Positions 47,930 to 48,301 of a DNA stretch of 64,000 nucleotides are shown here, piece after piece. The position numbers and the translations under genes are program-made. The notes beneath the pieces are model-generated. The model searched no databases. It saw only the letters and a program-made list of their open reading frames with translations, and was not told the DNA's origin. Source of the DNA: Escherichia coli (GTDB lineage: Bacteria > Pseudomonadota > Gammaproteobacteria > Enterobacterales > Enterobacteriaceae); the NCBI RefSeq assembly GCF_044647545.1, contig NZ_CP172818.1. The stretch is one strand, 5' to 3'. The first letter of the stretch is position 1. The number at the start of each line of letters is the position of its first letter.

Positions 47930-48004
47930 TTAATTTATTCCATATTACTTCAGAGCATGCTGTGAAATAAGCGGCTCTCAGTTTGATTAATAGAGGTATT
48001 AATG

Positions 48005-48043
48005 CACGCTACCGCCCCTGGCTTTACAGCTACCAGAGCACTG
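48005..48043 (-). promoter_or_regulatory. JUMPstart sequence including the ops element (GGCGGTAGCGTG on the minus strand, 48005-48016) for RfaH-dependent antitermination
   Basis: Plus strand reads cacgctaccgcc...cctggctttacagctaccagagcactg, the reverse complement of the 39-bp JUMPstart consensus; lies in the rfbB leader. Confidence 0.85.
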
Positions 48044-48301
48044 CATGCATTCCTACGATGTGACGAGCGTTACCCACTCGCGCTTAACTCGAAAAATTCA
48101 AGCGCTAATTGTCTTACCAATCCGCTCTGGAAACAAGGAAAATCCTGGAAAACTTTGACTAAAATCCTATTGCTAAGTCGTTGTTATTCTGATTGTTTAT
48201 ATAAAACAACGGCAGGAAAATTCGCAACAAATTACTTTCGCCGCTAATCTTCACTGCCGTTATAATTTTCTTATCAACCGTTACATCCGGTCAGATTTTC
48301 A

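What the first reader, a model, noticed from the sequence alone, without database searches (positions are those of the whole stretch)
47930..48301. JUMPstart/ops element in the rfb leader
The reverse complement of 48005-48043 matches the 39-bp JUMPstart sequence including ops (GGCGGTAGCGTG), the RfaH recruitment site for antitermination of long polysaccharide operons. It is correctly placed upstream of rfbB on the minus strand.
Basis: partly seen in the sequence, partly recalled or inferred. Interest (0 to 1): 0.2.

Follow-up and report, generated by a model that had tools for sequence, protein, structure and literature searches.

The report
JUMPstart/ops antitermination site before rfbB
This is the well-known 39-base JUMPstart element, containing the ops site that loads the RfaH anti-termination factor, in the untranslated leader of an E. 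coli O-antigen operon. It is real and correctly interpreted, but it is an ordinary, already characterised feature.

Summary

- **Location.** The 39-mer CAGTGCTCTGGTAGCTGTAAAGCCAGGGGCGGTAGCGTG lies at window 48043..48005 (minus strand). ops GGCGGTAGCGTG lies at 48016..48005, 75 nt upstream of the rfbB GTG start (47929), on the coding (non-template) strand.
- **Family match.** Rfam's JUMPstart model (RF01707) matches full length at 60 bits against a gathering score of 35 (E 6.6e-12). It is the only copy in the window.
- **K-12 equivalence.** The 39-mer is identical to the E. coli K-12 rfb leader element, which has been used experimentally as an RfaH-dependent reporter.
- **Critical bases.** Every ops base shown by mutagenesis or structures to matter (C3-G8, T11, G12) is at consensus.
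- **Distribution.** JUMPstart-like 39-mers occur in 5425 of 5426 complete E. coli genomes, and so does rfaH.
- **Conservation.** Across ten diverse O-antigen loci the JUMPstart/ops core is the only long invariant block. Homology stops right after ops unless rfbB is the first gene.
- **Other parts of the reported span.** It also holds the galF terminator (48263..48206) and a conserved candidate σ70 promoter (-35 at 48136..48131, -10 at 48113..48108).
- **Side findings.** The locus is a mosaic: an O16 module with IS5-disrupted wbbL sits between flanks typical of another lineage. The hairpin-to-ops spacing is fixed across Gammaproteobacteria.

Novelty: already known. Interest: low.

The parts
48206..48263 (-). 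Intrinsic terminator hairpin of galF, followed by a U-rich run (UUGUUUUAU). It separates galF transcription from the rfb promoter.
   Evidence: RNA fold dG -30.3 kcal/mol, z -6.65, 0 of 200 shuffles fold as well. The outer stem ACGGCAG/CUGCCGU is conserved across 10 alleles. The terminator scan also flagged the inner stem.
48131..48136 (-). Candidate -35 hexamer TTGTTT of the rfb (O-antigen) promoter.
   Evidence: It lies in a block conserved in 9 of 10 diverse O-antigen loci, with T169, T171 and C172 invariant. A 17-nt spacer separates it from the -10. This is inferred and not mapped here.
48108..48113 (-). Candidate -10 hexamer GACAAT.
   Evidence: The -11A (48112) and -7T (48108) are invariant in all 10 alleles, including O157 (GATAAT). 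σ70 holoenzyme binding in this K-12 spacer is reported by genomic SELEX (PMC3946193). In CFT073 a σ70 ChIP peak lies upstream of ops (PMC9765446).
48098..48103 (-). Predicted transcription start region, which would give a leader of about 173 nt.
   Evidence: Inferred from the -10 position. It agrees with my recollection of a 173-nt leader mapped for the O7 cluster (Marolda & Valvano 1998), but that paper could not be opened, so this point is unverified.
48005..48043 (-). 39-nt JUMPstart element.
   Evidence: Rfam RF01707, 60 bits against a gathering score of 35, E 6.6e-12. Identical to the K-12 copy. It contains the only long invariant block in a 10-allele alignment.
48018..48036 (-). JUMPstart hairpin: 5' arm CUGGU (48036..48032), 9-nt loop (48031..48023), 3' arm GCCAG (48022..48018).
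   Evidence: On 21 gammaproteobacterial copies, 99% of cells are paired, 7 cells show changes on both sides, 0 of 500 shuffles reach this, and slid controls give 21-62%. The alternative long helix from the single-sequence MFE is not conserved, at 69% paired. The stem ends at the same position relative to ops in 40 of 54 gammaproteobacterial loci, against 16% of chance hits.
48005..48016 (-). ops element GGCGGTAGCGTG (G1 = 48016 ... T11 = 48006, the pause site; G12 = 48005). [quoted passage not shown]
   Evidence: Exact match and unique in the window. C3, G4, G5, T6, A7, G8, T11 and G12 all match the bases required in mutagenesis and structures (PMC5995543; PMC11001881).
47930..48004 (-). Post-ops leader (75 nt) running to the rfbB start. 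It has a weak Shine-Dalgarno sequence and contains the mini-ORF AUGGAAUAA (47943..47935).
   Evidence: Anti-SD duplex energy is -3.3 kcal/mol against a locus median of -5.65, which is 6th weakest of 26 genes, and the start codon is GTG. This stretch is conserved only in loci whose first gene is rfbB.
46844..47929 (-). rfbB (rmlB), the first gene of the operon controlled by the element.
   Evidence: ORF list and RefSeq annotation of the identical sequence.

Best explanation
Window 48043..48005 (minus strand) is the JUMPstart element of the O-antigen (rfb) operon leader, and its 3' 12 nt are the ops site.

**Proposed sequence of events**
1. Transcription most likely starts about 95 nt upstream of ops, at a conserved σ70-type promoter near 48136..48108, after galF transcription has ended at a strong terminator.
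2. When RNA polymerase transcribes ops, it pauses at U11 (48006).
3. The ops bases in the exposed non-template DNA strand fold into a small hairpin (G2:C9, C3:G8, G4:A7, with T6 flipped out).
4. This hairpin is recognised by RfaH, a specialised paralog of the general elongation factor NusG.
5. RfaH then stays on the polymerase and excludes NusG.
6. It suppresses pausing and Rho- and H-NS-dependent silencing.
7. Through its refolded C-terminal domain, RfaH helps ribosomes load on the weak rfbB start.
8. The result is that the whole roughly 11.8-kb AT-rich operon is transcribed.

**Shown here**
- The sequence, its uniqueness in the window, strand and position.
- Family membership.
- Conservation and covariation of the hairpin.
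- The homology boundary at ops.
- The weak Shine-Dalgarno sequence and the AT-rich operon body.
- Near-universal presence of rfaH in E. coli.

**Taken from the literature on the identical K-12 element and on CFT073**
- Pausing, RfaH binding, antitermination and the size of the effect.

**Inferred**
- The promoter and transcription start position.
For: - Sequence and placement.
- Rfam JUMPstart, 60 bits against a gathering score of 35.
- The 39-mer is identical in K-12, and the leader differs from K-12 at only 15 of 372 positions, none of them within JUMPstart.
- JUMPstart-like 39-mers occur in 5425 of 5426 complete E. coli genomes, with a median of 3 places per genome.
- rfaH occurs in 5425 of 5426 genomes.
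- The JUMPstart/ops core is the only long invariant block in 10 diverse O-antigen loci.
- In a 60-genome spread sample, 22 alignments end at position 296-305 of the 372-nt intergenic query (numbered from the galF stop; ops ends at 297), and 33 run on to rfbB.
- Hairpin covariation.
- Operon body is 32-38% GC.
- Weak Shine-Dalgarno sequence and GTG start.
- Literature:
  - ops base requirements and the U11 pause (PMC5995543).
  - cryoEM structure of the ops-paused complex (PMC11001881).
  - An ops reporter built from the rfbB upstream fragment (PMC2871177).
  - About 300-fold RfaH effect on rfb (PMC5449661).
  - RfaH/NusG occupancy on K-12 rfb (PMC3382729).
  - CFT073 ChIP-seq showing RfaH loading at the O-antigen leader ops, with a σ70 peak upstream (PMC9765446).
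  - Reviews stating that the waaQ and rfb leaders carry ops plus JUMPstart and lack an RBS (PMC6358824).
Against: - Nothing in the sequence argues against the interpretation.
- No expression data exist for this strain.
- rfaH is not in the window, so its presence in this genome is inferred from its near-universality in E. coli.
- The promoter and transcription start are inferred from conservation. One published computational pick places σ70 hexamers downstream of ops (PMC3946193).
- The simple promoter scan did not call the upstream candidate, because its -35 matches only 3 of 6 positions.
- The operon's product is probably non-functional here, because wbbL is interrupted by IS5. The element's physiological output in this strain may therefore be moot.
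Confidence: 0.93

Rival explanations
1. The element works mainly at the RNA level rather than as a DNA-strand RfaH loading site. Possibilities are a structured leader RNA, or a short leader transcript that titrates RfaH as RirA does at the waaQ leader.
For: - The 5' half of JUMPstart forms a hairpin with covariation and conserved spacing to ops.
- Rfam files it as a cis-regulatory RNA (PMC2864571).
Against: - Crystal and cryoEM structures and mutagenesis show that ops is read in non-template DNA (PMC5995543, PMC11001881).
- The whole leader is not more structured than shuffled sequence (z -1.08).
- The long helix that pairs ops RNA is not conserved.
- This is best viewed as a possible extra layer, not a replacement.
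Confidence: 0.12
2. The functional rfbB promoter lies downstream of ops (TTCACA-18-TGGAAT, window 47966..47937). Most rfbB transcripts would then never contain ops, and the JUMPstart would be a relic.
For: A genomic SELEX study lists exactly these hexamers for the rfbBDACX promoter in the K-12 galF-rfbB spacer (PMC3946193).
Against: - The hexamers were chosen computationally within a low-resolution binding peak.
- TGGAAT lacks the -11A.
- A start there would leave almost no leader before the GTG.
- The block is absent from loci whose first gene is not rfbB, whereas the upstream candidate is conserved in them.
- Strong RfaH and ops dependence of rfb expression is reported (PMC5449661, PMC2871177).
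- The σ70 ChIP peak lies upstream of ops in CFT073 (PMC9765446).
Confidence: 0.04
3. The block is conserved chiefly because it serves as a homologous-recombination arm or junction for O-antigen cluster exchange, not because of a regulatory function.
For: - Homology between different serogroups ends within a few nt of the ops 3' end.
- This window is itself an O-antigen mosaic.
Against: - In this window the crossover is in rfbC (44910-44912), 3 kb downstream of JUMPstart, not at it.
- The same motif, with covarying hairpins, precedes polysaccharide genes in distant genera where homology-arm use cannot explain it.
- Experimental regulatory function is documented.
- The boundary is better explained as a consequence of functional constraint.
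Confidence: 0.03
4. The match is a chance occurrence with no function.
For: A 12-mer with up to 1 mismatch is expected 0.26 times per window in shuffles.
Against: - The full 39-mer gives E 6.6e-12.
- It is invariant across diverse alleles.
- It is present in 5425 of 5426 genomes.
Confidence: 0.005

Closest known systems
E. coli K-12 rfb (O16) leader JUMPstart/ops (Hobbs & Reeves 1994; Wang et al. 1998; Belogurov et al. 2009)
   Same: - The 39-mer is identical.
- The galF-rfbB intergenic length is the same (372 nt), with 96% identity overall (15 differences, none in JUMPstart).
- The downstream genes are the same: rfbBDAC, then the O16 module with IS5 in wbbL.
   Different: The leader and rfbBDA here belong to a different haplotype, about 94% identical to K-12 and 99.99% identical to strain FDAARGOS_497. 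There are 15 substitutions, 5 of them in the predicted transcribed leader upstream of JUMPstart.
Rfam RF01707 JUMPstart RNA motif (Weinberg et al. 2010)
   Same: Full-length match at 60 bits. The consensus 5-bp hairpin followed by GGGCGGUAGCGUG is present.
   Different: None of substance. Rfam models it as RNA, whereas the characterised recognition of ops is in non-template DNA.
JUMPstart upstream of wza (colanic acid operon) in the same lineage
   Same: A second full JUMPstart (57 bits) with exact ops lies 178 nt upstream of wza in FDAARGOS_497. The architecture is the same: promoter, JUMPstart, then a long polysaccharide operon.
   Different: It lies outside the window, and the surrounding leader sequence is different.
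waaQ 5' UTR ops/JUMPstart and the RirA sRNA
   Same: Both are ops-containing leaders of an LPS operon that lacks a good RBS and is RfaH-dependent (PMC6358824).
   Different: A stable 73-nt RNA (RirA) that binds RfaH has been described for waaQ. Nothing equivalent is known or tested for the rfb leader.
his-leader type hairpin-stabilised pause
   Same: Both have a 5-bp stem and a loop of about 8-9 nt, with the stem ending about 12 nt upstream of the paused RNA 3' end. For JUMPstart this spacing was measured here; the his figures are from my own recollection.
   Different: The ops pause is biochemically and structurally distinct from hairpin-stabilised pauses: it is pre-translocated or backtrack-prone and class II (PMC11001881, PMC5995543). 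No role for the JUMPstart hairpin in pausing has been shown.

Membership tests
JUMPstart element (Hobbs & Reeves 1994; Rfam RF01707) | Match to the 39-nt consensus above the curated threshold | tested here: met
   60.0 bits against a gathering score of 35, model positions 1-38 of 38, E 6.6e-12; repeated on the whole window.
JUMPstart element (Hobbs & Reeves 1994; Rfam RF01707) | Location just upstream of, and on the same strand as, the first gene of a polysaccharide gene cluster | tested here: met
   It lies 75 nt upstream of rfbB on the minus strand, between galF and rfbB. Downstream are rfbDAC, wzx, glf, wzy and wbbIJKL.
JUMPstart element (Hobbs & Reeves 1994; Rfam RF01707) | Conserved stem-loop in the 5' half | tested here: met
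   CUGGU/GCCAG can form here. Across 21 copies from other genera, 99% of cells are paired, 7 cells show changes on both sides, and 0 of 500 shuffles reach this.
RfaH/ops antitermination system | 12-nt ops with the bases needed for RfaH contact (C3-G8) and for pausing (T11, G12) | tested here: met
   Exact GGCGGTAGCGTG at 48016..48005. Base requirements are from PMC5995543 and PMC11001881.
RfaH/ops antitermination system | ops lies in the non-template strand of a transcribed leader, downstream of the promoter | tested here: inconclusive
   The strand is correct. The promoter is inferred from a conserved -35/-10 block about 95 nt upstream and from literature on K-12 and CFT073. No transcription start data exist for this sequence.
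RfaH/ops antitermination system | rfaH is encoded in the same genome | not testable with these tools
   rfaH is not in the window and the source genome is unknown. The gene is present in 5425 of 5426 complete E. coli genomes.
RfaH/ops antitermination system | Operon expression depends on RfaH | not testable with these tools
   This needs an experiment. It is reported for the K-12 rfb operon, which has the identical 39-mer (PMC5449661, PMC2871177, PMC3382729), and for the CFT073 O-antigen operon (PMC9765446).
RfaH/ops antitermination system | The target is a long, AT-rich operon whose first gene has a poor ribosome-binding site | tested here: met
   The operon is about 11.8 kb and 32-38% GC between 38 and 45 kb. 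The rfbB anti-SD energy is -3.3 kcal/mol against a median of -5.65, with a GTG start. The Shine-Dalgarno sequence is weak rather than absent.

The most novel reading that the evidence does not exclude
The conserved hairpin in the 5' half of JUMPstart may be a spacing-dependent partner of the ops pause rather than decoration. Its last paired base always sits 12 nt upstream of the paused RNA 3' end (U11). It would therefore form at the mouth of the RNA exit channel exactly when polymerase pauses at ops.

There it could limit backtracking or arrest of the hyper-paused RfaH-bound complex. Alternatively it could tune pause duration, or keep the following RNA accessible for ribosome loading.

The spacing holds in 40 of 54 gammaproteobacterial loci with 23 different stem sequences, against 16% in chance matches. 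The mechanistic papers I could read do not address this hairpin.
Probability: 0.25. Interest if true: 0.4.

Novelty: already known. Interest (0 to 1): 0.07.

Why it matters
For genome annotation, this is a textbook regulatory site. It marks the 5' boundary of the variable O-antigen gene cluster and explains how a long, AT-rich, horizontally exchanged operon escapes Rho/H-NS silencing. Nothing new about biology follows from finding it here.

Two things have minor residual value:
1. The same leader drives O1 genes in one genome and an O16 module here. This illustrates that the promoter-JUMPstart-rfbBDA block behaves as a constant "expression cassette" for exchangeable serotype genes.
2. The strictly conserved hairpin-to-ops spacing points to an untested role for the 5' half of JUMPstart.

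Tried and rejected
1. **Primary promoter-mapping paper.** I tried to open Marolda & Valvano 1998 (PMID 9620955 / PMC107806), but it is not held. The 173-nt leader figure is therefore from memory only.
2. **Literature search on JUMPstart, galF and promoter.** It was swamped by "JumpStart" Taq polymerase papers.
3. **Promoter scan.** It called only TTGAGA-18-GAAAAT at 48324..48295, which overlaps the galF stop and lies upstream of the galF terminator. I rejected it as the rfb promoter.
4. **Weak Rfam MIR8001 hit at 48200..48267.** At 25 bits against a gathering score of 90, it is just the galF terminator hairpin.
5. **Single-sequence MFE of the leader.** It prefers a long helix pairing ops RNA with the 5' half of JUMPstart. 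That helix is not conserved across genera (69% paired, several positions mostly unpaired), so I rejected it in favour of the short hairpin. The whole leader is not significantly structured (z -1.08).
6. **Serotype label, corrected.** I first labelled the locus O1 by transferring annotation from the genome with a 100% identical leader. A base-by-base check failed, and BLAST showed that the serotype-specific core is O16, not O1.
7. **Cross-genus scan.** I used these as a negative control rather than as homologues.

Full report
**Observation**

On the minus strand, window 48043..48005 reads CAGTGCTCTGGTAGCTGTAAAGCCAGGGGCGGTAGCGTG, and its last 12 nt (48016..48005) are GGCGGTAGCGTG. At up to one mismatch this 12-mer occurs once in the window. 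Shuffles give a mean of 0.26 at that threshold, and an exact 12-mer is expected 0.0076 times.

The 39-mer matches Rfam RF01707 (JUMPstart) over the full model at 60 bits against a gathering score of 35. The E-value is 6.6e-12 on 16 kb and 2.6e-11 on the whole window, and it is the only JUMPstart hit in the window.

The reported span 47930..48301 is exactly the intergenic region between the galF stop (48304..48302) and the rfbB GTG start (47929).

In the paragraphs below, q numbers count positions along the 372-nt intergenic query, starting just after the galF stop (q = 48302 minus the window position). JUMPstart is q259-297.

**Context**

Upstream on the same strand are the colanic-acid genes and galF. 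Downstream are rfbB, rfbD, rfbA, rfbC, wzx, glf, wzy, wbbI, wbbJ, wbbK, wbbL interrupted by IS5, then gnd, ugd and wzzB.

I first borrowed an "O1" label from strain FDAARGOS_497, whose leader is 100% identical. A direct comparison then showed that this was wrong.

- The window matches that genome at 99.99% only over 64000..44910 and 36164..30289.
- The central 36.1-44.9 kb is 100% identical to the O16 module of strain BS-01 and 99.7% identical to K-12, including the IS5 in wbbL.
- The crossovers are sharp: 44910-44912 (93 nt into rfbC) and 36110-36164 (the gnd 5' end).
- No complete E. coli genome in the collection carries this exact junction (best 97.4%).

The promoter-JUMPstart-rfbBDA block therefore belongs to the flank haplotype. 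The identical leader drives O1 genes in one genome and O16 genes here.

**Anatomy of the 372-nt intergenic region**

1. *galF terminator.* A strong hairpin at 48263..48206 is followed by a U-rich run. Its dG is -30.3 kcal/mol and z is -6.65, and its outer stem is conserved.

2. *Candidate promoter.* A conserved block contains -35 TTGTTT (48136..48131), a 17-nt spacer and -10 GACAAT (48113..48108).
   - In an alignment of ten diverse O-antigen loci (first genes rfbB, wzx or various glycosyltransferases), the -11A and -7T are invariant.
   - This predicts a start near 48100 and a leader of about 173 nt. That agrees with my recollection of the mapped O7 leader, but the paper could not be opened.
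   - Genomic SELEX reports σ70 holoenzyme binding in the K-12 spacer. However, the authors' chosen hexamers (TTCACA-18-TGGAAT, 47966..47937) lie downstream of ops, lack the -11A, and are absent from loci that do not start with rfbB. I treat them as an unlikely rival.

3. *JUMPstart hairpin.* The arms are CUGGU (48036..48032) and GCCAG (48022..48018), with a 9-nt loop.

4. *G0 and ops.* G0 is at 48017. ops runs from 48016 to 48005, with the pause site U11 at 48006.

5. *Post-ops leader.* This 75-nt stretch has a weak Shine-Dalgarno sequence (-3.3 kcal/mol against a locus median of -5.65), a GTG start and a mini-ORF AUGGAAUAA.

**Comparative evidence**

JUMPstart-like 39-mers occur in 5425 of 5426 complete E. 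coli genomes. The median is 3 places per genome and the maximum is 6.

The whole intergenic region finds 4632 genomes. In an evenly spread sample of 60:
- 33 alignments run to q367-372, in clusters where rfbB is the first gene;
- 22 stop at q296-305, within a few nt of the ops 3' end at q297;
- 5 are shorter.

In the ten-allele alignment the only long invariant block is GT.C.CTGGTAGC..T..AGCCAGGGGCGGTAGC.TG.

A second full JUMPstart lies 178 nt upstream of wza in the FDAARGOS_497 lineage, outside the window.

A scan of one genome per species for GGGGCGGTAGCGTG returned many chance hits in high-GC genomes. It also returned bona fide copies in Citrobacter, E. albertii, Enterobacter, Superficieibacter, Rahnella, Pantoea, Aeromonas and Idiomarina. 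In addition it found variants with different hairpins in Pseudomonas/Stutzerimonas, Marinobacter, Marinobacterium, Halomonas and Nitrincola.

**The hairpin**

On 21 copies, with the search pattern covering only one stem position:
- 99% of cells in the 5-bp stem are paired;
- 7 cells show changes on both sides;
- 0 of 500 shuffles reach this;
- slid controls give 21-62%.

The longer helix favoured by single-sequence folding is not conserved (69% paired).

Across 54 gammaproteobacterial loci, 74% have a stem of at least 5 bp whose last paired base is the G two nt before ops G1. This holds for 23 distinct stem sequences. Only 16% of 67 chance hits show it, and other offsets give 2-28%. The hairpin therefore ends 12 nt upstream of the paused RNA 3' end.

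**Mechanism**

The following comes from the literature.
- ops is one of the strongest consensus pauses.
- RNAP pauses at U11, and the non-template ops bases form a small DNA hairpin (G2:C9, C3:G8, G4:A7) with T6 flipped into a pocket of RfaH.
- Substitutions G4C, G5A, A7T and G8C abolish recruitment. C3G and T6A reduce it. T11G and G12C affect pausing (PMC5995543; PMC11001881).

All of these positions are at consensus here.

Bound RfaH excludes NusG, counters Rho and H-NS/StpA silencing, and recruits ribosomes to leaders lacking good Shine-Dalgarno elements (PMC9765446, PMC5449661, PMC6358824).

Direct evidence exists for the identical K-12 element:
- an RfaH-dependent lux reporter was built from the rfbB upstream fragment (PMC2871177);
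- rfb expression rises about 300-fold with RfaH (PMC5449661);
- occupancy profiles show RfaH replacing NusG on rfb (PMC3382729).

In CFT073, RfaH ChIP signal starts at the O-antigen leader ops, with a σ70 peak upstream. RNAP occupancy decays in the rfaH deletion mutant.

The operon body here is AT-rich, at 32-38% GC. rfaH is present in 5425 of 5426 E. coli genomes.

**Verdict**

The element is a full member of the JUMPstart family and of the RfaH/ops system on every sequence-testable criterion. RfaH dependence in this strain, and the exact start site, remain untested.

It is already known, and interest is low. The only mildly open point is the function of the conserved, precisely spaced hairpin.

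Noticed in passing
window 36110-44912: The O-antigen locus is a mosaic. The flanks (64000..44910 and 36164..30289) are 99.99% identical to strain FDAARGOS_497, which carries O1 genes. The core is 100% identical to the O16 module of strain BS-01 and 99.7% identical to K-12. The crossovers are sharp, at 44910-44912 (inside rfbC) and 36110-36164 (the gnd 5' end). The exact junction is absent from 5426 complete E. coli genomes (best 97.4%).
   Followed up: yes
window 36260-38255 (IS5 transposase ORF 36761..37777, minus strand): wbbL (rhamnosyltransferase) is split by an IS5 element in an arrangement collinear with K-12 and BS-01. The strain is therefore predicted to make no O antigen (rough LPS) despite an intact JUMPstart/ops leader.
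   Followed up: partly
window 48206-48263 (minus strand): A very stable hairpin (dG -30.3 kcal/mol, z -6.65) followed by a U-run lies just after galF and is conserved across alleles. It is a likely intrinsic terminator that insulates the rfb promoter. It is also the cause of a spurious weak Rfam MIR8001 hit.
   Followed up: yes
window 48108-48136 (minus strand): A conserved promoter-like block (TTGTTT-17-GACAAT) lies about 95 nt upstream of ops, with the -11A and -7T invariant in 10 diverse O-antigen loci. The consensus scanner did not call it because its -35 is weak.
   Followed up: partly
window 47937-47966 and 47935-47943 (minus strand): TTCACA-18-TGGAAT, published as the K-12 rfbBDACX promoter in a SELEX survey, lies downstream of ops, right before the GTG start. 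A 2-codon mini-ORF AUGGAAUAA overlaps it. Both are conserved only in loci whose first gene is rfbB.
   Followed up: partly
loci L018, L048, L051, L119 (two copies), L122-L124 (Pseudomonas/Stutzerimonas/Marinobacterium); L013, L073, L074 (Marinobacter); L085, L086 (Nitrincola); L069, L095 (Halomonas): Exact GGGGCGGTAGCGTG is preceded by hairpins of quite different sequence (for example CAGGA...TCCTG, CACTGG...TCGGTG). Where checked, these sit upstream of polysaccharide genes (WecB-type epimerase, Wzx-like, Wzi). The representatives tested (L048, L051, L073, L086, L119) were not reported by Rfam RF01707 at its gathering threshold, so the curated model seems to under-cover non-enteric variants.
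   Followed up: partly
window 48017-48036 and loci L011-L130: The hairpin's last paired base is at a fixed position (two nt before ops G1, 12 nt before the pause 3' end) in 40 of 54 gammaproteobacterial loci with 23 different stem sequences. The figure is 16% in chance matches from other phyla.
   Followed up: yes
RefSeq hits H115, H125, H127-H130; locus L008 1517-2431: Some RefSeq E. coli genomes annotate a 'hypothetical protein', or an over-extended glycosyltransferase start, across the JUMPstart element. These are probably gene-calling artefacts.
   Followed up: no
window 48002-48247 (plus strand): An 81-aa ATG ORF runs antisense through the leader and JUMPstart. It has no support and is most likely spurious.
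   Followed up: no
window 6619-6822 (+), 22524-22598 (-), 24888-25011 (+), 57648-57697 (-): Other Rfam matches at or above the gathering score: IS102 RNA (252.6 bits), STnc240 sRNA, the histidine operon leader, and the algC RNA motif (78 bits) within the colanic-acid cluster.
   Followed up: no
locus L131 7809-7847 (minus strand; NZ_CP033850.1, outside the window): A second full JUMPstart (57 bits, exact ops) lies 178 nt upstream of wza, the first gene of the colanic-acid operon, in the lineage whose flanks match this window.
   Followed up: yes
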